Virus record (IMG/VR): IMGVR_UViG_3300032272_000018
Span: 1-53,911 of that record
Reading direction: 5' to 3' (one strand)
Origin: a virus
Taxonomy: Duplodnaviria; Caudoviricetes
Length of the DNA: 53,911 nucleotides
Shown: one piece after another, positions 1 to 10,190 of the stretch
Layout of the letters: the number at the start of each line of letters is the position of its first letter
Position numbering within the stretch: position 1 is the stretch's first letter
The notes under the pieces: generated by a model
What the model saw: the letters and a program-made list of their open reading frames with translations, nothing else
What the model was told of the DNA's origin: nothing
Database searches by the model: none
Program-made: the position numbers and the translations under genes

Positions 1-143
1 TGCCCCTGTGATTTCATGCCCCTGTGATTTCATGCCCCTGTGATTTCATGCCCCTGTGATTTCATGCCCCTGTGATTTCATGCCCCTGTGATTTCATGCC
101 CCTGTGATTTCATGCCCCTGTGATTTCATGCCCCTGTGATTTC
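1..143. repeat. Tandem repeat, 16-bp unit TGCCCCTGTGATTTCA, ~8.9 copies, truncated by the window edge
   Basis: Eight perfect units plus 15 nt are directly visible; a further partial copy GCCCCTGTGATTT lies at 193-205. Confidence 0.97.
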
Positions 144-482
144 TCATGGTGCGGAAAAAACAAGGCTTAGTGTTGAGAGTAAAAATAGCTTCGCCCCTGT
201 GATTTTGTAGGGCGAATATGTTTGGGGGTACGGAGGGGGGATAAACCCCCATTTTTGAAAGGGGTGCGCTTGGCTCGGCAGGGTGATGGAAGGAGGAGCG
301 GCCTTATGGCTGGGGCTTGCTTGGCTGCTGTTGTGCTTCCGCTTTGGTGGATCCTTGCCGGTGCCTCCTTGCATGGTTTGCCGTCATGGGGTGATGTATA
401 GCGGTTTCCTGCTGTGCTTTCGTATATTGCACAGCAGAAGGCCAGCGGTAATATACCTCACACGCTGGCCTTGTCAAACGGT

Positions 483-887
483 TTATGGTGTACATGAGGA
501 TTTCAACACCTTCACCGCCCACCCGTTCGCGGTGAAGGTGTACCCGCCTTCCTCTGCCTTGTTCATGTGCTTTATCAATGTTGTGCGTTCCATATTCAAA
601 ACCCTGGCAACTTGCGAGCGATTAAGCAGAGGGAGAACGGTATCAGTTGCCGGGTGGATGCATTTATATTTTCTATAGGCCGTTGACGCGCGCGGCGCGC
701 TCTCCATCCCAAGGTGGTTTTCAATGATCAGTAATACAGCTTTATTTGTCGAGCAGTGGGGGAATTTCTCTTTCAATGCTTGAAAGGTCTCAAGGGGAAG
801 GGTTGAGAATACCCCTTTGGTTCCTGTTGCTTTCTTGGCTGGCTGCTTGGTCGGCTGCTTGGCTGGTTTCTTCGCTGTGGCGGTCAT
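483..887 (-). CDS. Putative DNA-binding protein (C-terminal HTH-like segment, Lys/Pro-rich N-tail)
   Basis: 134-aa ORF with GAGGGG RBS; LLNRSQVARVLNMERTTLIKHM resembles an HTH; AKKPAKQPTKQPAKKA basic tail. Confidence 0.6.
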   Translation of the reverse strand: MTATAKKPAKQPTKQPAKKATGTKGVFSTLPLETFQALKEKFPHCSTNKAVLLIIENHLGMESAPRASTAYRKYKCIHPATDTVLPLLNRSQVARVLNMERTTLIKHMNKAEEGGYTFTANGWAVKVLKSSCTP

Positions 888-910
888 GCGCTGCCCCTCG
901 GAATGATTAA

Positions 911-965
911 GCCCCGGCCTTTGATTGGCCGGGGCGGTTGTGGTTGTGGTTGTGGTTGTGCTTGT
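911..965 (-). repeat. Intergenic hairpin element copy A: (ACAACC)4 + GCCCCGGCC-AATCAAA-GGCCGGGGC
   Basis: Perfect 9-bp stem with 7-nt loop at 911-935, upstream of the RBS of 483..887. Confidence 0.9.
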
Positions 966-975
966 TGTTGCGGCC

Positions 976-1167
976 TTAAAACTCCTCGGAAAGCTGGCGC
1001 GCTACTTCAGCGACACTTCCGAGGACAGTGTGCTCTTTCCCGGAGGTCATTCGGATCCTGGCAATGCTATCTAGGTCAACCTGTTCGATTGACTCCACTA
1101 GCGCCTGATTTATAAAGAGAGCCTTGTTGCCTCTATCATTGGTCTCGGTACTTTTAAAGTATTTCAT
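976..1167 (-). CDS. Small early protein, FlbD-like
   Basis: 63 aa, AAGGGG RBS; the pattern FIN...VESIE...IRM.SG....V.GS..EV resembles the FlbD/SwrD-type small proteins common in phages. Confidence 0.55.
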   Translation of the reverse strand: MKYFKSTETNDRGNKALFINQALVESIEQVDLDSIARIRMTSGKEHTVLGSVAEVARQLSEEF

Positions 1168-1179
1168 GCTATCCCCTTT

Positions 1180-1221
1180 GCCCGGCCTTTGATTGGCCGG
1201 GGCGGTTGTTGTTGTGGTTGT
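1180..1221 (-). repeat. Intergenic hairpin element copy B
   Basis: GCCCGGCC-TTTGATT-GGCCGGGGC (plus strand) at 1180-1203 followed by a GGTTGT-type tract; abuts the RBS of 976..1167. Confidence 0.9.
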
Positions 1222-1255
1222 GGCCTTAAAACTCCTCGGAAAGCTGGCGCGCTAT

Positions 1256-1588
1256 TTACGGCAGAGTGTTGCTAACGTCTATCCGCTCAAGCAGGCCCCA
1301 TTCGTAGCCGATTTCTTCTATTTCGCCTGTGGTAAGGATCGTCCCTTCCGGAGCGCGGCCCTTGAGTTTAAAAACCAATGCTGTATCGCCTGCCTGCTGC
1401 TGATACTGTATCCGGTTCATTCTAACCTCTACCCCGAGCAGGGTAGAGATAACGGCGGCGGTTGACTCGTGCCCGACCGCGCTCCGAAAGCAAGGCGTGA
1501 TGATCTTCTTTGCTTGCTCAAGCGAGCAAGCTTTATAGGTGTACGTTCCGTGCGCCGTGATGATTGATGTATTTAAGATTGTTATCAT
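1256..1588 (-). CDS. acrIII-1: DUF1874 / STIV B116 / YddF family protein = AcrIII-1 cA4 ring nuclease (anti-type III CRISPR)
   Basis: 110 aa with the family hallmarks ILNTSII, SAVGHESTA (catalytic GH), MNRI, GDTALVFKL and RAPEG.IL...EI; GAGAGG RBS. Confidence 0.88.
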   Translation of the reverse strand: MITILNTSIITAHGTYTYKACSLEQAKKIITPCFRSAVGHESTAAVISTLLGVEVRMNRIQYQQQAGDTALVFKLKGRAPEGTILTTGEIEEIGYEWGLLERIDVSNTLP

Positions 1589-1611
1589 TTTATGCTATCC
1601 TCTCTTGTTAA

Positions 1612-1749
1612 TTAAAATATTACAGGCACAACCTCAAACTGATATAGGTTGCCGCAGACATAGCAACCCATGTTGCTGCCAATATTAACGGCCGTTTCCC
1701 TGACGTGTGCCGATGTGCTTTGCGCATATTTTGTTCTTATTTCGTTCAT
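1612..1749 (-). CDS. Small hypothetical protein (45 aa, CxxC)
   Basis: Start re-called at MNEIRTK, just downstream of hairpin copy C; ORF track start is 1806. Confidence 0.45.
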   Translation of the reverse strand: MNEIRTKYAQSTSAHVRETAVNIGSNMGCYVCGNLYQFEVVPVIF

Positions 1750-1760
1750 TTTTTCTCTTT

Positions 1761-1796
1761 GCCCCGACCATTGATTGGCCGGGGCGGCTGTGGTTT
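1761..1796 (-). repeat. Intergenic hairpin element copy C
   Basis: Minus strand GCCCCGGCC-AATCAAT-GGTCGGGGC; the single stem change gives a G-U pair on the minus strand. Confidence 0.85.
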
Positions 1797-2053
1797 TACC
1801 TTGCAATCTTTCCGGGGCCTATCTCGTCAAATCGGAAAGATAGTCTTGGCTTGTCGCCGAATGGCGTTAAATCTATAGTATCTCGCCACAAAGACACTAT
1901 AAACGCCGGGCTTGTGCCTTGCGGGATGTCCGTTATTTCCCTGATTTGCAGGGATGAGCCGTTATAATCACCCGGCTTTGATCCTGGATGTGCCAATGTT
2001 GTTACAGGTAATCCTTTTCCGCTGCATATTGTCTTTACCAATATTTTTTTCAT
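1796..2053 (-). CDS. Hypothetical early protein (85 aa)
   Basis: Start re-called at MKKILVKT with an AAGGA RBS, downstream of hairpin copy D. Confidence 0.6.
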   Translation of the reverse strand: MKKILVKTICSGKGLPVTTLAHPGSKPGDYNGSSLQIREITDIPQGTSPAFIVSLWRDTIDLTPFGDKPRLSFRFDEIGPGKIAR

Positions 2054-2066
2054 GATCTTTATCCTT

Positions 2067-2095
2067 ACCCCGTTGCCGGGGCGGTTGTGGTTGGA
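2067..2095 (-). repeat. Shortened hairpin element copy D (ACCACAACC-GCCCCG-GCAA-CGGGGT)
   Basis: Same 5' tract and stem base as the other copies, capped by a GNRA tetraloop. Confidence 0.7.
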
Positions 2096-2096
2096 T

Positions 2097-2333
2097 TTAT
2101 AACCAAACAAGGTTGTGTTTCTGCGCATTCCACATAATGCTTTTCCTATTTCGGCGGATCGAAACCTCATACCAGTGAATACGGCAGGCGAGATGCTTCC
2201 CTGCTCTATCATGATATAGACAGAGGTCTTTCTTGCCTGTGTTCTTAAGTACGAATCTCAGCTTGTCGGTTGTCGGCTCTTTGCGCGCGTATAGCGTCGG
2301 CCTTGCATATTTTACTTTGAATGATGTTGTCAT
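2097..2333 (-). CDS. Hypothetical basic early protein (78 aa)
   Basis: GAGGGG RBS; fills the slot between the ribozyme and element D. Confidence 0.6.
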   Translation of the reverse strand: MTTSFKVKYARPTLYARKEPTTDKLRFVLKNTGKKDLCLYHDRAGKHLACRIHWYEVSIRRNRKSIMWNAQKHNLVWL

Positions 2334-2365
2334 GATCCCCTCTTTTGATAGGTGATTATAAAAAA

Positions 2366-2449
2366 AGCTGGCTGGCCTCGTCAGAGGGCGGGAACCGCCC
2401 CGCCCTGACAGCAGAGGGTAGGCCCCTGCTGTTTCGCCTGTATCAAGCT
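2366..2449 (-). ncRNA. Hammerhead ribozyme, type II topology
   Basis: Minus strand reads GGC-GAAA-CAGCAGGGG-CCUAC-CCUCUGCUG-UC/AGGGCGGG-GCGGUU-CCCGCCCU-CUGACGA-GGCC. Full conserved core (CUGANGA 2384-2378, GAAA 2435-2432, GUC 2409-2407) with a 10-bp stem III and an 8-bp stem I. Confidence 0.88.
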
Positions 2450-2984
2450 AATTACGCGCTTTCCTCAATACAGATGAAAAGAAGAAACAATCAAGGAGAA
2501 CGAGCTTGCTGCTTGCAATAGCTATGTTGTGCGGCGAAATCTCAAACCTTATATCAGAACCGTAATTAGTTAGAGCATCCACAGCCGCGCAGAGAGCGGT
2601 TTTCTTGTGGTGGAACTTGTTCGGAATTTCCCTGAACATGTCCTCGGTATTGTAGAAAGATTCATATGAGCACTGTTCGGGTGTCAACTTGCGAAGACAA
2701 CAGTAGAATTCATATTCGTACTGAGAAAGATTACCTTTCACCTTGCGCACCTTGTCAAAATGTTTCTGCTCGTAGATGCTGCTCTCTTCGTCTTCACATA
2801 TAGCTATCCTTTCAATCTTTGGGAACAACCTTGAACTAGGGAACCAGCCAAGAGACATGCATTCTTTTACAGGGTCATTTGATTTTATTAAAACGGTTGA
2901 CCTGTTTTTTCTGTAGACAGTTGAAAAGGCTCCCCGGCCTATGCACTTCAGCCCTGTGGTGCTGGTTTCGCGTGATGTGGTCAT
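2448..2984 (-). CDS. Protein kinase-like fold early protein
   Basis: Gly loop IGRGAFSTVY, VLIK lysine, catalytic-loop-like FEISPHNI, metal-binding-like LVLLDCF. Start re-called at MTTSRE with an AAGGGG RBS. Confidence 0.7.
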   Translation of the reverse strand: MTTSRETSTTGLKCIGRGAFSTVYRKNRSTVLIKSNDPVKECMSLGWFPSSRLFPKIERIAICEDEESSIYEQKHFDKVRKVKGNLSQYEYEFYCCLRKLTPEQCSYESFYNTEDMFREIPNKFHHKKTALCAAVDALTNYGSDIRFEISPHNIAIASSKLVLLDCFFFSSVLRKARN

Positions 2985-2999
2985 GATATATTCCCCTTT

Positions 3000-3041
3000 G
3001 CCCCGGCCTTTGATTGGCCGGGGCGGTTGTGGTTGTGGTTT
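3000..3041 (-). repeat. Intergenic hairpin element copy E
   Basis: Perfect copy of the 25-nt hairpin (3000-3024) plus (ACAACC)2, abutting the RBS of the kinase-like gene. Confidence 0.9.
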
Positions 3042-3043
3042 GA

Positions 3044-3235
3044 TTAGTATTCTTCCCAAGATCCCCAAACAACCGAATCGTTGGATGCTTCGTATCCGCT
3101 ACGTCGGGCCACAATGACCCGTCCTTTTATTTTGATCTCTTGCACTTCCCCGCAATAATATGGAAGAATCGCATCGAGTCTTTTAATGAGCTGCTTACGG
3201 CCCTGAATTGTTGCTTGTATTTGTTTTTCTGTCAT
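3044..3235 (-). CDS. Hypothetical early protein (63 aa)
   Basis: Strong AAGGAGG RBS; first gene after promoter P2. Confidence 0.7.
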   Translation of the reverse strand: MTEKQIQATIQGRKQLIKRLDAILPYYCGEVQEIKIKGRVIVARRSGYEASNDSVVWGSWEEY

Positions 3236-3288
3236 GATATCCTCCTTGTTTGGGTTGTTCAGGCTTTCACCTGATTTGCTTTATACTT

Positions 3289-3350
3289 CTCTCTGATCTG
3301 TCTTAACTATAACACCTTTATATAACAGTGTCACGCTTTTTCTTTGTGCT
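3289..3350 (-). promoter_or_regulatory. sigma70-type early promoter P2
   Basis: -35 GTGACA (3334-3329), 17-bp spacer, extended -10 TGT-TATAGT (hexamer 3311-3306), A-rich UP-like tract; near-identical to 4091-4152. Confidence 0.8.
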
Positions 3351-3405
3351 TTGTTCTTTTTTCTCTGCCTGCCGTTACCGCGCGACGGGGCGGTTGTTAA
3401 CGGTT

Positions 3406-3993
3406 TTAATTACGCGGTATGGGTTTACGAGCAAATGCTAACCCCTTTGGTACTGTCCCCGTTTCCAGGAAGAAGCAGTCCGTCCCATATATGTCGTCAC
3501 CCGTGGCTGCATTAATATCAAGCAGCTCTCTCATTTCAGGATTAATTAACCAGCATTCGTTTGGGGTTATTCCACAGGCAAATAACCTGTACATGGAGCA
3601 ACCGTATCTGTATAGGTTATTATTTATTTTTTCAAACTCTGTAAACTTCACGGTCATTTCTCTTTCTCCTTTAGACTCATTTGCTTCAAATCTGTTCTTC
3701 ACCACTCTGACACACTGCAAGCGGACCGCTGCCAGCGTGGCAGCGTCAAAGCAAAAAACTGTATCTGTTTCAAGGTCGGTTGTAATGCCGTGCCATGTTT
3801 TTTCGCCCATGTCTGCTTGCTGGTAGTACTCGCAGACTATCAAGCCATTGTCAAAGTCTTCCGTGTAAAATGGGTTTGCGACATTCCTTTTATTTAATCC
3901 GGTCCGGCTACTGATCTCGCACCTAAGCAACGAGAGGGTTAAACCCGCCGCTCTCTCATGGCTCTCTTTGTCTATGCTGCGTATGATTTTCAT
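3406..3993 (-). CDS. Hypothetical early protein (195 aa; possible fusion of two genes)
   Basis: AAGGGG RBS; an internal AAGGAG RBS and in-frame ATG at 3657. Confidence 0.7.
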   Translation of the reverse strand: MKIIRSIDKESHERAAGLTLSLLRCEISSRTGLNKRNVANPFYTEDFDNGLIVCEYYQQADMGEKTWHGITTDLETDTVFCFDAATLAAVRLQCVRVVKNRFEANESKGEREMTVKFTEFEKINNNLYRYGCSMYRLFACGITPNECWLINPEMRELLDINAATGDDIYGTDCFFLETGTVPKGLAFARKPIPRN

Positions 3994-4090
3994 AATGTCC
4001 CCTTTTGCTGGTTGTCTACATGGTGCTTTTCTCGCCTCTGCCTCGGTGCTGCATGTGGTCAGATCGTTATCAAGTGCGCTCGGCTGTTGT

Positions 4091-4152
4091 CTCTCTGACC
4101 TGTCTTAACTATAACACTTTCATATAACAGTGTCACGTTTTTTCTTCGTGCT
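4091..4152 (-). promoter_or_regulatory. sigma70-type early promoter P1
   Basis: -35 GTGACA (4136-4131), 17-bp spacer, extended -10 TATAGT (4113-4108); duplicate of P2. Confidence 0.8.
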
Positions 4153-4199
4153 GTGTTCTTTTTTATTTAAGTTATTGTTATTGCCTAATGTATTGCAAT

Positions 4200-4221
4200 A
4201 ATGTGAACCGCGCTTCACATT
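4200..4221. promoter_or_regulatory. Palindromic operator-like site AATGTGAA-N6-TTCACATT
   Basis: Perfect 8-bp arms in the divergent early/late intergenic region; extra half-sites near 4239 and 4272. Confidence 0.45.
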
Positions 4222-4353
4222 TTGAATATTAGATTCATAATGTGAACTTACCCTCGTTTATTGCAACAGACGTTCACATGTCAAAAACGCCGTGCATTTT
4301 TAACCCATATTCTTAGCCTGCTAACTATTTATTACAGTTTTGTATTAAATATA

Positions 4354-4382
4354 TTGCAACCTTTTTACAATTATGTGATAAT
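4354..4382 (+). promoter_or_regulatory. sigma70-type promoter for the packaging operon (probably leaderless)
   Basis: TTGCAA-17bp-GATAAT with a TG extension; the ATG lies 6 nt after the -10 and has no SD. Confidence 0.55.
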
Positions 4383-4388
4383 CGTTTT

Positions 4389-5201
4389 ATGAGCGATGAA
4401 AAACCCACAAAACCCGATAAATTCAAAGATCCAACACAAACCCCCAAGGGATCAAAAAAGGAACCGTGGGCCCCGCTCCCTCCTGGTAAGGCCGGAAATC
4501 CAATGAAATACGTACCAATTCCCAAGGATCAGCAGAAAAAGCGCGGGCCTGCTCCCCGTAAAGGACTGTTTGCGGAGGCTCGTAAAAAGGTGGCGGCCAA
4601 GAAAAAAGGCCCGCGCACCCTGCCCCCACTATCCCTGACCCGTGCGGAATACAAGGACGTATTCCGCACTATTGAGGATTTAGAGACAGCCGCCAACGCT
4701 TACCGGGACGAGTGTTCGAAGACCGGAGATCTACCCACCTTGACAGGGTTTTGCTTGTCCTGCGGCGGCAACTCAACACTCCTCGACTCCTATATAGATG
4801 GAGCGGATAAATCTCTTGCTCGTGCTGCTCAGGCCGTAGCTGATTGGATTATCGAGCAGATGGATCAAGCAGTAATCGGCGGGACGTGCCCTGTTAATTA
4901 TGCTCAGCATATTGCGATTAATCAGCATAAGAGAGTGAATTCAAGGACGTACACAGAATCAAGCAATAAGACAGTAGTGGACAATCAGCACACCCTCGCA
5001 AACATCATTGACAAAGCAGACACCGGAGGACTACCCGCCCCGCCTGGAGCAGTTAAGAGGATTGGAGCAGGCGCAGACAAGCAACGGGTTATAGAGCTGG
5101 AACCGGTACGGGACACCAGAGGGCAGAGCAGGCCGGGCAGTAAGGCAGCGCAGAGGGTAACGGACTCTGAATCCGTTGGTCGCAAGACAAGGAAGAGCTG
5201 A
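4389..5201 (+). CDS. Terminase small subunit (P22 gp3-like DNA-packaging domain)
   Basis: FRTIEDLETAANAYRDEC...PTLTGFCLSCG pattern; basic disordered termini; position upstream of TerL. Confidence 0.7.
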   Translation: MSDEKPTKPDKFKDPTQTPKGSKKEPWAPLPPGKAGNPMKYVPIPKDQQKKRGPAPRKGLFAEARKKVAAKKKGPRTLPPLSLTRAEYKDVFRTIEDLETAANAYRDECSKTGDLPTLTGFCLSCGGNSTLLDSYIDGADKSLARAAQAVADWIIEQMDQAVIGGTCPVNYAQHIAINQHKRVNSRTYTESSNKTVVDNQHTLANIIDKADTGGLPAPPGAVKRIGAGADKQRVIELEPVRDTRGQSRPGSKAAQRVTDSESVGRKTRKS

Positions 5202-5451
5202 ACTGTAAGCACATGCACAGCAGTACAGTATTTGCACATACTCACAGCCCCCGCACTGCCCCCACTTTTTGCCGCATGGCTTGGCTGATTGGCGTGGTCT
5301 GCTTGGATGATGAATGAAAAAGTTTCCGAATGGTCATAGGCAGGATGATGGGGGGGGGGTGCCCCTGGTGGCTAATCGGCGGCGGCTGTAATATTGATAG
5401 GGGGGTGTCCAGTGCTCCTGAAAAATTTGAAAAAAAAATTGGAGAAAATAG

Positions 5452-6096
5452 ATGACGAAGATAAAAGACGCTGCTCTAGATAACCCTATCTGGAGGTTGA
5501 ATAATTTATATTCTATCCAAGATAAAGCTGGTCATGTAGTACCTTTTAGTCCGAACAAAGACCAAACTGATTTTATAGAAACTTCGCTTACAGGCTTGAA
5601 TTTCGTGCTCAAGAGACGCAGGCAAAAGGGACTAACTTCAATCGTACTGATGCTTATGCTAGATGAGTGTCTGTTTGCCAAGAATGTTAAATGTGGACTC
5701 GTCGAACTCACCTACCGAGCCGCCTCTAATGTTTTATCTAAAATAAAAATGGCATACGACAAAATTCCGACCGAGCTGAAGGAAGCATGTCCGCTTGTAT
5801 CCGAAACAAAAAGGGAGCTGGTATGGGCTAACGGTTCAACCATTTACGCGGGCACTTCAATCAAAAAAGGCGAGACCCATGATATGCTATCCATATCCGA
5901 GTTCGACTTTATACAAGAGAGGCTGCCGAATCTCGCGACAGATATTGAACAATCCATCCACGATTCATTGGCAGAGCACGGACAGTGCTTTGTAAGCAGC
6001 GACGCAAGAACACTAGACTCGATCCTTGGGTTATATGATATGGCTGAAAGGAATTCTAATGGCATCGACCATAATGGATTTTTTATTTTTGGCTAA
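5452..6096 (+). CDS. Truncated terminase large subunit paralogue (ATPase domain only)
   Basis: Aligns by eye with the N-terminal half of 6108..7670 (WRLNNLYSI, LKRRRQKGLTS, KIKMAYDKIP, ELVWANGS, LSISEF); no nuclease domain; GGAG RBS. Confidence 0.82.
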   Translation: MTKIKDAALDNPIWRLNNLYSIQDKAGHVVPFSPNKDQTDFIETSLTGLNFVLKRRRQKGLTSIVLMLMLDECLFAKNVKCGLVELTYRAASNVLSKIKMAYDKIPTELKEACPLVSETKRELVWANGSTIYAGTSIKKGETHDMLSISEFDFIQERLPNLATDIEQSIHDSLAEHGQCFVSSDARTLDSILGLYDMAERNSNGIDHNGFFIFG

Positions 6097-6107: not shown

Positions 6108-7670
6108 ATGCCAAACCATAAAAAAATAGAGAGATGCGTCACCGATATAGAGTGGCGTTTCGATAATCTATATTACATCATCAACAAGGACGGAAAGAGA
6201 GTTCTCTTTAAGAGGAATCCGTCCCAGATGGACCTGTGGCTGAATCGCTGGTACTGGAATATAATTCTCAAGGATCGCCAGCGAGGTTTCTCTACACTCA
6301 TAGCGATGATTATGGCTGACACAGTTTTTTGGAATAAAAACCAGAAATGCGGAATCATTGACATTACCCTGAAGGATGCAATGAGGAAGCTCGGTAAAAT
6401 AAAATATGCCTACGACAATCTCCCGGAGGATATCAAGGCGAAGAACCCGCTAATCACCGACTCGAAACAGGAACTTGTCTGGAAGAATGGCTCATCGGTT
6501 TATTGCGGAACTTCCCACCGTGGCGACACATTACAGATCCTCCATATCTCAGAGTTCGGGAAGATTTCTGCAAGAGCCCCTGAGCAGGCCAGGGAGATCA
6601 TTACAGGAGCCATCAACACCCTGAAGATAGGGCAGACACTGTTTATCGAGTCCACAGCAGAGGGCAAGTCGGGCCGGTTCTACGAGTATTGCCAAAAAGC
6701 TCAGGACATGATGTTGTCCAAGGCGAAGTTGACCAAACAAAGTTTCAAATTCTTTTTCTATGGATGGTGGGAAGACGGTAACGACAACGAGATGAATCCA
6801 GAAGGAGTATCCATCTCAAGAGATAATGAAAAATATTTTAAAAATTTAGAGCGAAAATTAAACATAACGCTCTCCGAACCAAAGAAGGCTTTTTACCAGA
6901 TCAAGTCTGATACCATGAAAGGGGATATGTGCCGAGAGTATCCAGGCACCCCCGCTGAGGCATTTGACGCTTCCATTGAAGGGGCATACCTCGCTTCAAA
7001 AATAAAAGAATTACGGAAGAAAGGGCAAATTTCAAACATTGTCCATGACCCTTCAAGTCCTGTAAACACTGCATGGGATATCGGGCTTAAAGACAACACG
7101 ACCTGCTGGCTCCACCAATACATAGAGAATCAGCACCGGTTCATTGGCTACATATCAGGAACAGACGAAGACATACTCTTCTACTGGGCCGAGCTTAGAA
7201 AGTTTAATTACATTTGGGGAAACCACTTCCTCCCTCATGATGGTGAAACTCGTAGATCCGGTAGCGCAGAGTCAGCTACCGAAAAGCCAAAGACCTTGAA
7301 GATGATCCTTGAGAAGGCCGGGATGCAAAACGTACACACAGTACCTCGTATCCCAAATAAATACATCTCCATTCAGGAAACAAAGTTATTTCTCCCTCAA
7401 TGCTTTATCTCGACAGCATGTGAGTCTCAGCCAAAGTGGAGCAAAGAGACCTCTGATACGTACAAAGGAGGCATCACTTGCTTAGAGAATTACCGCCATG
7501 AGTGGGACAAGAAGAATGGTTGCTGGAAGGACACCCCGGTTAAGGACTGGGCGGGGCACGGATATGACTCATTCGAGACCTTTGTCCGAGGATGGGCTGC
7601 TCATGGCGGGACCGTAGGTGGTCCGGCCCCGAAGATGAGAAAAAAACGACAACCAACCCCAGCATGGTAG
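6108..7670 (+). CDS. terL: Terminase large subunit
   Basis: Walker A variant LKDRQRGFST, Walker B LHISEF, motif III ESTAEG, nuclease motifs WDIG, LPHDG and HGYDSF. Confidence 0.95.
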   Translation: MPNHKKIERCVTDIEWRFDNLYYIINKDGKRVLFKRNPSQMDLWLNRWYWNIILKDRQRGFSTLIAMIMADTVFWNKNQKCGIIDITLKDAMRKLGKIKYAYDNLPEDIKAKNPLITDSKQELVWKNGSSVYCGTSHRGDTLQILHISEFGKISARAPEQAREIITGAINTLKIGQTLFIESTAEGKSGRFYEYCQKAQDMMLSKAKLTKQSFKFFFYGWWEDGNDNEMNPEGVSISRDNEKYFKNLERKLNITLSEPKKAFYQIKSDTMKGDMCREYPGTPAEAFDASIEGAYLASKIKELRKKGQISNIVHDPSSPVNTAWDIGLKDNTTCWLHQYIENQHRFIGYISGTDEDILFYWAELRKFNYIWGNHFLPHDGETRRSGSAESATEKPKTLKMILEKAGMQNVHTVPRIPNKYISIQETKLFLPQCFISTACESQPKWSKETSDTYKGGITCLENYRHEWDKKNGCWKDTPVKDWAGHGYDSFETFVRGWAAHGGTVGGPAPKMRKKRQPTPAW

Positions 7671-7676
7671 CAATAA

Positions 7677-10190
7677 ATGGCAACTGAAATAGAAAGCGCG
7701 CTCGCTGGCAACAACAGCGATGCCTATGCTGGCGAAGAAAACGAAAGTGCTTCTGCGCAGTCGACATTAAAGAAGAAGAGAAAATCTCCTCACGATATCC
7801 CGCTGACAGTTGAAGAGCTGGTGAACATCCGGTCAGAGATGATTGACCAGAACGCCTGGAGACGCAGGGCTGACCTCGAAAGTGACTACGCTGATAACAA
7901 CCAGCTAAGTGCCCCTGTAATGAAGAGGCTGAAAGACAGGGGTGTTCCTCCCGCCGTCGAGCCGCTGATCAAGACAGCCCTTAATGCTGTATCAGGAGTA
8001 GAGGTCAAGACACGAACAGACTTCGTTGTTCTTTCTGACAGCGATAGCTCATACGACCCAAATGACGAGGAGTATTTCACAAGGGTTGAGCAGGAAGATG
8101 ACAAGGTAAAGGCACTTGGACAGCGGCTTAAAAAAACAGAAATAAGATCAGGATGTGATCGCGCATGTACCGCTGGGTTTGAGGGGCTGCTGAAGGTTGG
8201 AGTCGGATGGGTCGAGATAGGCAAAGAGCAAGATCCTTACAAGTACCCTATCCGTGTAAACTCTGTCCATCGCAATGAGATGTGGTGGGACATGTCGAAC
8301 CCGGAAGATCGCCTGCTCAAGAAGGCAAAGTGGGTTGTCCGGGAAAAGAAGATTGTAATGAAAGGAGAAAACTTACTCTTCATTATCAATTCATTGAAAG
8401 GAAAAAGAAAAAAAGAAAGAGCTGCTGAGATGACTGGCGGAGGCGCCATGTCCCTGCTTGAATCATCTGACAATGCAGGGCTGGAGCTGAACGGAGTATG
8501 GGGATCTGACAGGGGATATGCTATTGAAGATGAAATCTTCAAGGATAAAACCCGCAAGGATACAGTGCTTACGGAGATACTGTATCGGCGATGGGCGGAA
8601 ACAGTCCTGCTGATGAAGGAAGATGGTGAATGTATAGAGTATGAGCCTGGCAACCCAGACCACTTGGCCATGATCGGACTAGGGGCAAAGGTTATCAAAA
8701 GAGTAACCAGCAGGGTCCGCCAAGCATATGCCATTGGCAATAATATATTCTACGACGAATTCTCTTCCATATTCCGTGACGAATTTCACTATGCCCCATT
8801 CTTTGGGTACCTAGAGGATAGAACCGGCACCCCATATGGAGAAGTCCGTGGAATGATTTACCTCCAGGATGAAGTGAACAGCCGGACAAGCAAGATGCAA
8901 TGGCTATTATCTGCTGTTCGCACCGTTCGACCAGACGGAATGTTTTTAGCTGATGACGATACCTTCAGAGACGAGGTTGGCAGGGCAGATGGAGATTTAG
9001 TTTTTTCTCCCGAGTTCGTTGACAAGTACCCTGGTGCAGCCAAGATGCTCAGTATCGACTTCATGCGTGACCTCACGCAAGAGCAGTACCTGCGACTTCA
9101 AGATGCCAGGGCTGCTTTATTTGCGGTGGTGGGGATCACCCCGGCTTTCCTTGGACAGACAAGCGGAGGGCAGGAATCAGCTTCAGGGTATAATCAGCTC
9201 ATAGAGCAGACAACGCAAGTTTTGGCAAAGCCGTTTGATTATTACAATAACGCCAGGAAAAATGTTGGAAATTTATTATTGATGCTTGAGGCTGAGTCCA
9301 TTCAGGAAAATGAAGCTGTCCTTATTAGGAACGAGTTCGGGGACGATAAGCTGATCGTGCTGAACCAGATTCCCTCTGAAGACAGCAAGCTCACCAATTC
9401 TGTTCAGCTGCACACCATGCACATAGAGCTGGCTGAGTTACCGAGCACCCCGACTTTCAAGAACCAGCAACTCATCTCGATGACAGAAGTTGTTAAGTCA
9501 GCTCCGGACGAGTTCAAGGCTGCTCTTTATCCACGTATGCTGGCGTTGATGCAGATCCATGACAGGGCTGAAGTGATAAAAGAAGTCCTTGCCAAGATGA
9601 AAACACCTTCCTCCGAGCAGATCCAGGAACAGATTGACGAGGGCGTAAATGCCGGACTGCAAGAGAAGATGTACGAGCTTGAGCTAAAGAAGCTCTCCTT
9701 GAAGGAAAGAGAGCTTGACATCAAGGAAGCTGAATCAGCGAGCAAGGTAGATAAAACAGATGCCGAGACTGACCACGAGATAGAGAAGATAAAACTTACA
9801 AAGGCGACAACAGGAAAGACATCGGGAGATCACAGCTTCTCGGCGATAACAACAGCCCGTGAGATTGTTGCCACACCAGAAGTTGTACCTATAGCTGACG
9901 AGCTTTACATTGGCCAGGGCGGGCAAGACCTTAACGATGCACCCACGTTCCTTCCTCCGGTGGTCGGGACAAGTCCTGGACTAGGAACTCCTGTGGCAGG
10001 GAAGCCTGTTGAGCCGGTAGTTACAGGCGGGCAGGAGGCTACAGCAGGGCAAGCAATTAACCCAAACACAAGCCCTAACTTTCCTCCGAGAGTAAGCGGG
10101 CAGGATGAGCAGCAACCAGCTACCGTTCTACCTGAAGTGCAGGAGGAAACACAGGAATCCCCTTTTGAAGGGATAGAGGGAGGGGGATGA
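7677..10190 (+). CDS. Portal protein (P22-like) with a long C-terminal extension
   Basis: 837 aa after TerL; DYADNNQ...RGVPP, GVGWVE, PYGEVRGMIYLQDEVNSR and SG..I motifs of podoviral portals. Confidence 0.88.
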   Translation: MATEIESALAGNNSDAYAGEENESASAQSTLKKKRKSPHDIPLTVEELVNIRSEMIDQNAWRRRADLESDYADNNQLSAPVMKRLKDRGVPPAVEPLIKTALNAVSGVEVKTRTDFVVLSDSDSSYDPNDEEYFTRVEQEDDKVKALGQRLKKTEIRSGCDRACTAGFEGLLKVGVGWVEIGKEQDPYKYPIRVNSVHRNEMWWDMSNPEDRLLKKAKWVVREKKIVMKGENLLFIINSLKGKRKKERAAEMTGGGAMSLLESSDNAGLELNGVWGSDRGYAIEDEIFKDKTRKDTVLTEILYRRWAETVLLMKEDGECIEYEPGNPDHLAMIGLGAKVIKRVTSRVRQAYAIGNNIFYDEFSSIFRDEFHYAPFFGYLEDRTGTPYGEVRGMIYLQDEVNSRTSKMQWLLSAVRTVRPDGMFLADDDTFRDEVGRADGDLVFSPEFVDKYPGAAKMLSIDFMRDLTQEQYLRLQDARAALFAVVGITPAFLGQTSGGQESASGYNQLIEQTTQVLAKPFDYYNNARKNVGNLLLMLEAESIQENEAVLIRNEFGDDKLIVLNQIPSEDSKLTNSVQLHTMHIELAELPSTPTFKNQQLISMTEVVKSAPDEFKAALYPRMLALMQIHDRAEVIKEVLAKMKTPSSEQIQEQIDEGVNAGLQEKMYELELKKLSLKERELDIKEAESASKVDKTDAETDHEIEKIKLTKATTGKTSGDHSFSAITTAREIVATPEVVPIADELYIGQGGQDLNDAPTFLPPVVGTSPGLGTPVAGKPVEPVVTGGQEATAGQAINPNTSPNFPPRVSGQDEQQPATVLPEVQEETQESPFEGIEGGG

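What the first reader, a model, noticed from the sequence alone, without database searches (positions are those of the whole stretch)
2366..2449. Type II hammerhead ribozyme inside the early polycistronic transcript
Seen: the complete catalytic core on the transcribed strand (GAAA, 10-bp stem III, GUC, 8-bp stem I, CUGACGA-G), starting right at the stop of the kinase-like gene. Predicted cleavage is between 2407 and 2406. Stem II is short and imperfect (G10.1-C11.1, then a bulge), and loop I GCGGUU could pair with the 3' AGCCAGC tail as a pseudoknot. Known: hammerheads occur in phage intergenic regions with unclear roles. Inference: self-cleavage separates the kinase mRNA from the downstream message, which includes acrIII-1, and gives it a 5'-OH hairpin-capped end. 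It occupies the slot where the other junctions have the hairpin repeat.
Basis: partly seen in the sequence, partly recalled or inferred. Interest (0 to 1): 0.82.

Follow-up and report, generated by a model that had tools for sequence, protein, structure and literature searches.

The report
Type II hammerhead ribozyme in phage operon
A small self-cutting RNA of a well-known class (a type II hammerhead ribozyme) sits between two genes of a phage operon; it is a genuine but ordinary member of a class that is very common in phages and whose biological role is still unproven.

Summary
Rfam's Hammerhead_II model (RF02276) matches window 2366-2439 on the minus strand at 41.1 bits (gathering score 37, E 4.9e-5), the only match in the window over a gathering score. 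A second model, built here only from 17 other phage hammerheads, finds the same site at 43.7 bits. It finds nothing better than 11.9 bits elsewhere in the window and nothing in 1.02 Mb of other phage DNA.

All core nucleotides are present, along with a 10-bp stem III, an 8-bp stem I, GUC with the cut after C2407, and a 4-bp loop I/3'-tail pseudoknot. Stem II carries extra nucleotides compared with the usual 2-bp form. A few natural phage copies have similar insertions, so activity is likely but unproven.

The ribozyme lies 7 nt after the stop of a phrog_11084 gene and 32 nt before a 78-aa ORF. Five other junctions in this operon carry a CA-tract/GC-hairpin repeat in that position. AcrIII-1 lies three genes downstream.

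Such intercistronic type II hammerheads are already described (Perreault 2011; cyPhyRNA-seq 2021), so this is a new member of a known kind. No close relative and no RNA data were found. The role in mRNA processing and stabilisation is inference.

The parts
2366..2440 (-). Type II hammerhead ribozyme (Rfam RF02276 match 2366-2439; own model 2366-2440)
   Evidence: 41.1 bits vs gathering score 37; 43.7 bits with model R1, which was built from other phages' copies.
2406..2407 (-). Predicted self-cleavage site: after C17 (2407), before A1.1 (2406)
   Evidence: Position of GUC 2409-2407 relative to stems III and I. Cleavage itself was not tested.
2408..2432 (-). Stem III hairpin: 10 bp including one G-U, loop CCUAC. 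It would form the 3' end of the upstream cleavage product.
2385..2406 (-). Stem I hairpin: 8 bp, loop GCGGUU. It would form the flush 5' end of the downstream cleavage product.
   Evidence: An 8-bp stem with a 6-nt loop is the commonest form in the family (52 of 92).
2367..2377 (-). 3' strand of stem II (G GCC, with one extra G) followed by tail AGCCAGC, which pairs with loop I (pseudoknot)
   Evidence: The linker is 4 nt, against 2 nt in 107 of 127 aligned copies.
2355..2384 (-). Promoter-like site CTGACG-N18-TATAAT overlapping the ribozyme's 3' half and the U7 tract
   Evidence: 10 of 12 matches. Consensus match only.
2448..2984 (-). Upstream gene C, 178 aa, phrog_11084, weak kinase-like fold. 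The likely true start is ATG 2984 after an SD, not the longest ORF (start 3068).
2097..2333 (-). Downstream gene D, 78 aa, no family match and no relatives found
1256..1588 (-). AcrIII-1-type gene (STIV_B116-like, PF08960), three genes downstream of the ribozyme
   Evidence: E 2.7e-26, 92.1 bits; phrog_5063.
2994..3040 (-). Intercistronic CA-tract plus 9-bp GC hairpin repeat at junction B|C. Other copies: 1755-1801, 1173-1219, 905-951; short form 2070-2097; partial 3386-3408.
   Evidence: 5 matches vs 0.11 expected; folds.
3306..3334 (-). Promoter-like site P2 (GTGACA-N17-TATAGT with TG) inside a 75-nt repeat. Its twin P1 is at 4108-4136.

Best explanation
Window 2366-2440 (minus strand) encodes a genuine type II hammerhead ribozyme of the pseudoknot-stabilised kind common in phages.

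Inferred mechanism:
1. It is transcribed as part of a leftward polycistronic mRNA that starts at the sigma-70-like promoters P2 (about 3300) and/or P1 (about 4100).
2. It folds co-transcriptionally and cuts itself after C2407.
3. The upstream piece (genes B-C, possibly A) ends in the 10-bp stem III hairpin with a 2',3'-cyclic phosphate.
4. The downstream piece (genes D to I, including the AcrIII-1 homologue) begins with a 5'-OH flush in the 8-bp stem I hairpin.
5. The net effect is to uncouple the two halves of the operon and give both new ends a protective hairpin.

What is shown: family membership, the intact core, the fold and the position. What is inferred: transcription, cleavage and the effect on mRNA fate.
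For: Match to the family:
- Rfam RF02276 scores 41.1 bits over a gathering score of 37, E 4.9e-5, full-length. It is the only ribozyme-class hit even at E<=10.
- The independent model R1, built from 17 IMG/VR phage hammerheads with none from the window, scores 43.7 bits, E 3.2e-8 in 803 kb.
- With filters off, the next best window hit is 11.9 bits.
- R1 finds 0 hits at E<=0.1 in 79 other phage loci totalling 1,019,113 bases.

Structure:
- All invariant core positions and all stem pairs are present.
- The unconstrained minimum-energy fold (MFE) contains stems III and I (z -2.39; 1 of 200 shuffles folds as well).
- The family structure is backed by covariation: 97.5% of cells are paired against 67.7% in shuffles, and 15 of 17 pairs show changes on both sides (the alignment was fitted to the model).
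- The pseudoknot potential of 4 bp equals the family mode (62 of 127).

Position:
- In the family the ribozyme sits a median 1 nt after an upstream stop (121 of 127 copies have one within 400 nt) and 9 nt before a downstream start (125 of 127).
- The window copy has 7 and 32 nt.
- No terminator-like site lies on the minus strand between P2 and the ribozyme.

Literature:
- The type II pseudoknot was validated by mutants, and prophage polycistronic RNAs were cut at every hammerhead in vitro and in E. coli (PMC3088659, passages read).
- Three predicted RF02276 members near phage genes cleave in vivo in D. vulgaris (PMC8782182, passages read).
Against: - There is no cleavage assay and no RNA data (one search listed only one DNA run).
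- The copy is divergent: rank 117 of 127 by score, and its nearest family member is only 59% identical.
- It has 4 nt, not 2, between A9 and the AGCC tail. Only 5 of 127 aligned copies do.
- Perreault 2011 reports that insertions near the pseudoknot, or one extra stem II pair, cut the rate by orders of magnitude in their construct.
- No twin of this stem II/tail form was found in viral contigs (0; 41 pattern hits, none with both stems) or in genome contigs (6 pattern hits, none a hammerhead by R1).
- No orthologous copy exists in relatives. RF02276 was over its cut-off in 0 of 50 records. The three loci with a homologue of gene C have none.
- A promoter-like site inside the ribozyme's 3' half could give gene D a transcript that lacks the ribozyme.
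- Simple folding shows no change in accessibility of the gene D Shine-Dalgarno (SD) site between uncut and cut RNA.
Confidence: 0.7

Rival explanations
1. It is a hammerhead by descent but a slow or dead one. The extra nucleotides in stem II misplace the pseudoknot, so the sequence now serves mainly as a pair of GC-rich intercistronic hairpins (stems III and I), like the hairpin repeat at the other junctions, and/or as a spacer.
For: - Linker of 4 nt against 2 nt in 107 of 127 copies.
- Low rank by score, 117 of 127.
- Perreault 2011's mutational data on spacing around the pseudoknot.
- No natural twin of this form found.
- The other junctions make do with a plain hairpin.
Against: - Every core nucleotide is intact, and so is the pseudoknot. 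Neutral decay would hit these first.
- Natural phage arrays contain copies with a 3-bp stem II (14 with a 3-nt linker) and with an extra base after A9 (the three TGGC copies with a 4-nt linker and TGC in L155:5798), so this spacing lies within natural variation.
- L136:163 has the same layout: an 8-bp stem I, a 6-nt loop GCGGCG, one extra base, a 3-bp stem II, then AGCCA.
Confidence: 0.2
2. The functional element is an internal sigma-70 promoter for gene D (CTGACG-N18-TATAAT, 2384-2355, preceded by a T7 tract). The hammerhead acts only on read-through transcripts or is incidental. This does not exclude the ribozyme being real.
For: -: 10 of 12 consensus matches with a perfect TATAAT, one of the four best sites in 1-5500.
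- The 32-nt gap between ribozyme and start codon is longer than the family median of 9 nt and holds the T7-TATAAT.
Against: - The -35-like hexamer is simply the obligatory CUGANGA core box.
- The spacer is 18 nt, and there is no TG motif as in P1 and P2.
- Promoter-like sites are common in this scan (16 found against 7.3 expected in shuffles).
- A promoter does not explain the stems, GAAA, GUC or the pseudoknot that give 41-44 bits.
Confidence: 0.2
3. It is a chance resemblance to the hammerhead consensus in a GC-rich intergenic hairpin region.
For: - The region holds GC-rich hairpins in general.
- The score is only 4 bits over Rfam's threshold.
- There is no conservation in relatives to lean on.
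Against: - E 4.9e-5 for the whole window against all families.
- 43.7 bits, against a next best of 11.9, with an independent model.
- 0 hits in 1.02 Mb of other phage DNA and 0 of 14 control genomes.
- Correct strand, intergenic position, stem I and loop lengths, and pseudoknot register match the family.
Confidence: 0.02

Closest known systems
Type II hammerhead ribozymes (Rfam RF02276; Perreault et al. 2011, PMC3088659)
   Same: - Same permuted topology: stems I and III capped, stem II open.
- Same core, and a short stem II.
- A pseudoknot between loop I and the nucleotides just 3' of stem II.
- Location in phage or prophage intergenic regions, flanking small genes of unknown function.
   Different: - Two extra nucleotides between A9 and the AGCC tail.
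- Loop GCGGUU instead of the usual GUGG(U/C)G, which shifts the pseudoknot register by one.
- U7 and TATAAT follow the tail instead of an immediate SD.
- It is a single copy, not part of a multi-ribozyme array.
   Same: - A ribozyme sits in the stop-to-RBS gap of operons of small genes.
- L174:9434 has GGC/GCC stem II, loop CGGUU and tail AGCC, the closest layout to the window copy.
- In Perreault's A. tumefaciens case the genes flanked by ribozymes include the anti-restriction gene ardA. Here an anti-CRISPR-type gene lies downstream.
   Different: - Those loci have a ribozyme at many junctions (11, 9 and 9 hits in L166, L136 and L174). Here one junction has the ribozyme and five have a plain hairpin repeat.
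- The window's genes share no protein similarity with those loci.
- AcrIII-1 is three genes downstream, not adjacent.
Desulfovibrio vulgaris type II hammerheads shown active in vivo by cyPhyRNA-seq (PMC8782182)
   Same: Predicted RF02276 members next to hypothetical and phage-like genes. They show that such predictions usually cleave in cells and in vitro.
   Different: Different organism and sequence. No such data exist for the window copy.
RNase III processing sites of the phage T7 early polycistronic mRNA, and synthetic ribozyme insulators such as RiboJ (both recalled, not from a call)
   Same: Functional analogy only: intercistronic cuts leave hairpin-ended mRNAs and make each cistron's expression independent of its neighbours.
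   Different: - T7 uses a host protein enzyme and long imperfect duplexes.
- RiboJ is engineered.
- Neither is a family relative.

Membership tests
Hammerhead ribozyme, type II (Rfam RF02276) | Score at or above the curated gathering score of the covariance model | tested here: met
   41.1 bits vs 37, full model 1-66. Same result on the whole record.
Hammerhead ribozyme, type II (Rfam RF02276) | Conserved catalytic core: C3 U4 G5 A6 N7 G8 A9, G12 A13 A14, A15.1-U16.1, and H17 at the cleavage site | tested here: met
   CUGACGA at 2384-2378; GAA at 2435-2433; A2432-U2408; C2407. N7 is C, a position that varies in the family. The numbering convention is recalled.
Hammerhead ribozyme, type II (Rfam RF02276) | Three-way junction with stems I and III closed by loops and stem II open (type II permutation) | tested here: met
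   Stem III has 10 bp and stem I has 8 bp, both in the unconstrained MFE. The 5' and 3' ends leave through stem II.
Hammerhead ribozyme, type II (Rfam RF02276) | Pseudoknot of 4 or more pairs between loop I and the nucleotides immediately 3' of stem II (present in a majority of members, not all) | tested here: met
   GGUU (2396-2393) pairs with AGCC (2373-2370), giving 4 bp. The family mode is 4 bp (62 of 127). The family mean is 4.42, against 3.58 with shuffled loops.
Hammerhead ribozyme, type II (Rfam RF02276) | Usual stem II and tail spacing (2-bp stem II directly followed by AGCC) | tested here: not met
   The linker is GGCC (4 nt), against 2 nt in 107, 3 nt in 14 and 4 nt in 5 of 127 copies. 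The sample is biased towards 2 nt, because the loci were fetched with a pattern that fixes 2 nt. This is a typical feature rather than a defining one.
Hammerhead ribozyme, type II (Rfam RF02276) | Site-specific, divalent-ion-assisted self-cleavage giving 2',3'-cyclic phosphate and 5'-OH ends | not testable with these tools
   No RNA run holds the sequence. A bench assay is needed.
Hammerhead ribozyme, type II (Rfam RF02276) | Typical context: co-oriented with genes, between a stop codon and the next RBS in phage or prophage DNA | tested here: met
   7 nt after the stop and 32 nt before the start. Family medians are 1 and 9 nt.
AcrIII-1 / STIV B116-like ring nuclease (PF08960), for downstream gene 1256-1588 | Match to the Pfam model over its gathering score | tested here: met
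   92.1 bits vs 26, E 2.7e-26, profile positions 1-100 of 101. Catalytic residues and activity were not examined.
Protein-kinase-like fold, for upstream gene 2448-2984 | Sequence or structural match to kinase-fold proteins | tested here: inconclusive
   No Pfam hit at E<=0.01. Best PDB sequence E-value is 0.26. The AlphaFold2 model has pLDDT 65.7, and its best Foldseek hit is APH(2'')-Ia at E 3.6e-4, TM 0.39.

The most novel reading that the evidence does not exclude
The hammerhead and the CA-tract/GC-hairpin repeats are interchangeable intercistronic modules. Every junction of this operon is cut (by the RNA itself at C|D, by a host or phage nuclease in the CA tract elsewhere), so that each small gene, including the anti-CRISPR-type gene, is expressed from its own hairpin-capped mRNA. 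The ribozyme is the protein-independent version. If so, one natural operon would allow a direct comparison of the two solutions and would give a testable role for phage hammerheads.
Probability: 0.15. Interest if true: 0.55.

Novelty: new member of a known kind. Interest (0 to 1): 0.3.

Why it matters
The biological role of prokaryotic and phage hammerheads is still called an open question (review PMC6155905, passages read).

This copy adds a clean single-ribozyme case. It lies in an operon whose other junctions carry a different, purely structural repeat, and it lies upstream of an anti-CRISPR-type gene. That makes it a convenient natural system for asking what self-cleavage adds over a plain hairpin.

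The copy also samples a rare stem II/tail spacing that could inform the rules for pseudoknot-stabilised hammerheads.

By itself it does not change what is known. One capped scan found at least 120 comparable sites in viral contigs.

Tried and rejected
Searches that led nowhere:
- blastn of 1500-4500 against GenBank phages found no match.
- Relatives of gene C: 2 viral loci at 47-51% identity and 1 metagenome locus at 39%, none with a hammerhead.
- Relatives through the terminase: 76 loci at 34-48% identity. RF02276 was over its cut-off in 0 of the 50 records scanned (two sub-threshold hits of 21.1 and 18.5 bits). R1 found 0 hits in all 76 plus the 3 gene C loci. No orthologue was available, so lineage-specific covariation could not be tested.
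- Gene D has no relatives in viral contigs.
- Exact-architecture patterns: 0 in viral contigs. The looser GGCGAAA...CTGANGAGGCC pattern gave 41 stretches, none with both stems. By my reading, four of the six parses with a 7-8-bp stem I (L095, L111, L100, L101) are other hammerhead topologies, and L121 and L122 lack a convincing stem III. In genome contigs there were 6 stretches, none recognised by R1.
- The 23-mer of the hairpin repeat gave 0 matches in viral contigs and 0 in genome contigs. The idea that the repeat mimics a host CRISPR repeat, or marks relatives, therefore got no support. It is not excluded either, because only exact matches were sought.
- Sequencing runs: no RNA holder was listed. 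There was one DNA run, probably the source sample. Laying its contigs showed one contig across 1700-3029 with no differences, and contig breaks at the repeat at 3000-3040. This run is not independent support.
- Riboregulation idea (anti-SD CCCUCU stretches in the ribozyme masking the gene D SD): MFE and pairing probabilities are alike for uncut and cut RNA, so the idea was dropped.
- Terminator idea for the U7 tract: no terminator-like site was called there and no convincing alternative helix was seen. Dropped.
- Survey of 113 genes just downstream of other phage type II hammerheads: mostly PHROGs of unknown function. The named hits were DUF2786 and DUF7168 (10 each), GemA (8), HU-like (4), plus one or two Mu transposase, integrase and methylase hits. 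No anti-defence signal could be read from the names.
- No tRNA genes in the window.
- Supplements of PMC3088659 (Figures S4-S6, Dataset S1) could not be opened. They may hold natural copies with this stem II spacing.

Full report
**What the window is.** The window is a whole IMG/VR virus record: 53,911 bases, linear, 87% complete by CheckV. It carries a P22-like portal (7677-10190), a capsid protein and a large terminase (6108-7670) on the plus strand. At its left end it carries a leftward operon of small genes.

**The observation.** Reading the minus strand gives, in order: AGGC, GAAA (2435-2432), a 10-bp stem III (2432-2423 with 2417-2408, one G-U pair, loop CCUAC), GUC (2409-2407), an 8-bp stem I (2406-2399 with 2392-2385, loop GCGGUU), CUGACGA (2384-2378), G GCC, AGCCAGC and U7. 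All pairs were checked.

Rfam's Hammerhead_II model matches 2366-2439 at 41.1 bits, against a gathering score of 37. The E-value is 4.9e-5 and the match is full-length. No other family reaches its threshold, and at E<=10 the only other hits are noise such as miRNA and snoRNA models. The same search rings in 0 of 14 control genomes. The unconstrained fold contains stems III and I.

**An independent test.** A degenerate consensus pattern fetched type II hammerheads from viral contigs.
- Of 105 pattern matches, 92 had a stem III of at least 3 bp and a stem I of at least 4 bp. An 8-bp stem I with a 6-nt loop was the commonest form (52 of 92).
- I built model R1 from 17 equal-length copies.
- R1 found 127 sites in 803 kb. 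The window's site was among them at 43.7 bits, E 3.2e-8, rank 117 of 127.
- With filters off, the next best hit in the window was 11.9 bits.
- R1 found nothing at E<=0.1 in 1.02 Mb of 79 unrelated phage loci.
- On the 127-row alignment, 97.5% of cells are paired (67.7% in shuffles, 30-47% when partners are slid). Fifteen of 17 pairs change on both sides. The caveat is that the alignment was fitted to the model.

The family is therefore real and the window copy belongs to it. A chance match is very unlikely.

**How typical the copy is.** It is divergent. The nearest member is 59% identical and the median is 48%.
- Stem I and loop lengths are the modal ones.
- Its pseudoknot potential (GGUU with AGCC, 4 bp, plus 2 more after a bulge) equals the family mode (62 of 127). 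The family mean is 4.42 bp, against 3.58 with shuffled loops.

The clear deviation is between A9 and the AGCC tail:
- 107 of 127 copies have 2 nt there (a 2-bp stem II), 14 have 3, and 5 have 4 including the window. One copy had no recognisable tail motif. The sample is biased to 2 nt by the fetch pattern.
- The 3-nt copies (arrays in L136 and L174) have GGC/GCC stem II. One of them, L174:9434, has loop CGGUU and tail AGCC like the window.
- Three copies (L136:163, L136:2928, L174:3236) have an extra U after A9 followed by a 3-bp stem II. L136:163 also has an 8-bp stem I and loop GCGGCG.
- The window copy can be read the same way: an extra G, then GCC pairing with GGC.

None of these variants has been assayed. 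Perreault et al. report that insertions near the pseudoknot, or an added stem II pair, lowered the rate by orders of magnitude in their construct. I therefore put family membership near 0.95 and in vivo activity near 0.7.

**Context.** The likely true gene starts follow SD sequences. The minus-strand operon reads:
- P1 (4136-4108)
- gene A (3993-3406)
- P2 (3334-3306)
- gene B (3235-3044)
- gene C (2984-2448; phrog_11084)
- the hammerhead
- gene D (2333-2097)
- gene E (2053-1796)
- gene F (1749-1612)
- gene G (1588-1256; PF08960, AcrIII-1-type, 92.1 bits)
- gene H (1167-976)
- gene I (887-483)

These assignments rest. P1 and P2 lie in a 75-nt repeat that is 92% identical. Both read GTGACA-N17-TATAGT with a TG. 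The only terminator-like site on the minus strand lies at 4474-4460, upstream of P1. That the operon is 'early' is an inference from the host-type promoters.

Junctions B|C, E|F, G|H and H|I carry a conserved CA-rich tract plus a 9-bp GC hairpin just before the next SD. D|E has a short form, the sequence after gene A has a partial one, and F|G has none. Junction C|D has the hammerhead instead.

In the wider family the ribozyme likewise fills the stop-to-RBS gap: a median of 1 nt after a stop and 9 nt before a start. The window copy has 7 and 32 nt. The extra spacer holds U7 and TATAAT. Together with the core box CTGACG, this scores as a promoter-like site. It is a possible internal promoter and does not exclude the ribozyme.

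**Mechanism.** Cleavage after C2407 would leave the upstream RNA ending in the stem III hairpin with a cyclic phosphate. The downstream RNA would start with a 5'-OH at A2406, which is paired with U2385 in an 8-bp GC-rich stem. From general knowledge of bacterial mRNA decay (recalled), base-paired 5' ends and 3' hairpins slow decay by 5'-end-dependent RNase E or J and by 3' exonucleases. The likely outcome is therefore two independently stable halves. The opposite effect is conceivable in hosts where RNase J1 attacks 5'-OH ends, as for glmS (recalled). Simple folding gave no sign that cleavage changes access to the gene D SD.

**Relatives and RNA evidence.** No close relative was found.
- Homologues of gene C (39-51% identity) lack the ribozyme.
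- Terminase relatives (34-48% identity) lack it.
- Gene D has no relatives in viral contigs.
- Neither the exact stem II/tail form nor the hairpin repeat occurs elsewhere.
- Only the probable source DNA run holds the sequence. Its contig agrees base for base over 1700-3029.

**Upstream gene.** 'Kinase-like' has weak support. There is no Pfam or PDB sequence match. A four-sequence AlphaFold2 model (pLDDT 65.7, pTM 0.57) has aminoglycoside phosphotransferase APH(2'')-Ia as its best Foldseek hit, at E 3.6e-4 and TM 0.39.

**What is known.**
- Perreault et al. 2011 (PMC3088659; passages read) described type II hammerheads and their loop I/3'-tail pseudoknot. They also described their frequency in bacteria and prophages, arrays flanking small genes (including ardA), and cleavage of native polycistronic RNAs.
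- The 2017 review (PMC6155905; passages read) calls the role of prokaryotic hammerheads an open question and notes their persistent link to phages.
- cyPhyRNA-seq (PMC8782182; passages read) showed in vivo cleavage of three predicted RF02276 members next to phage-like genes.

The finding is therefore a new member of a known kind.

**Verdict.** Interest is modest at 0.3. The points worth keeping are the rare stem II spacing and the side-by-side use of a ribozyme and a hairpin repeat at equivalent junctions of one operon.

Noticed in passing
window 905-951, 1173-1219, 1755-1801, 2994-3040 (full); 2070-2097 (short); 3386-3408 (partial): A conserved intercistronic module on the minus strand: stop codon, CA-rich tract (AACCACAACC...), a 9-bp GC hairpin with loop AAUCAAA, then the next gene's SD. 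A 17-mer of it occurs 5 times, against 0.11 expected. Its 23-mer has no exact match in viral or genome contigs. Function unknown; candidates are a processing or stabilising site, a protein-binding site, or a recombination joint.
   Followed up: partly
window 3288-3362 and 4090-4164: A 75-nt direct repeat (92% identical). Each copy contains a strong minus-strand promoter-like site, GTGACA-N17-TATAGT with an extended -10 TG.
   Followed up: partly
window 1-146: About nine head-to-tail copies of a 16-nt unit (TGCCCCTGTGATTTCA) at the very left end of the linear record. This could be a genome terminus, a binding-site array or an assembly edge effect.
   Followed up: no
window 954-1007 and 1204-1257: A 54-nt repeat (91% identical). 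In one copy it forms the last codons and stop of gene H. In the other it lies just after the stop of the AcrIII-1-type gene G. This suggests cassette shuffling at the junction modules.
   Followed up: no
window 5452-6096 and 6108-7670: The 214-aa ORF just upstream of the large terminase matches the same PHROG (phrog_26724) as the terminase's N-terminal part. It may be a duplicated or split ATPase domain.
   Followed up: no
loci L123-L202 (IMG/VR): In 127 phage type II hammerheads the next start codon lies a median 9 nt after the model end, so the SD directly abuts the pseudoknot tail. In 107 of the 125 copies with a downstream start, that start is less than 20 nt away. This hints at coupling between ribozyme folding and ribosome binding.
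   Followed up: partly
L166, L136, L174: Dense hammerhead arrays: 11, 9 and 9 copies within 7-11 kb, roughly one per gene junction. The genes downstream of the family as a whole include Mu-like functions (GemA, Mu transposase) and DUF2786/DUF7168.
   Followed up: partly
window 2448-2984 (-): Gene C (phrog_11084) has a G-x-G-x-F-S-x-x-Y...K N-terminal motif and a weak structural match to APH(2'')-type kinase-fold enzymes. It may be a minimal kinase-like protein of 178 aa.
   Followed up: partly
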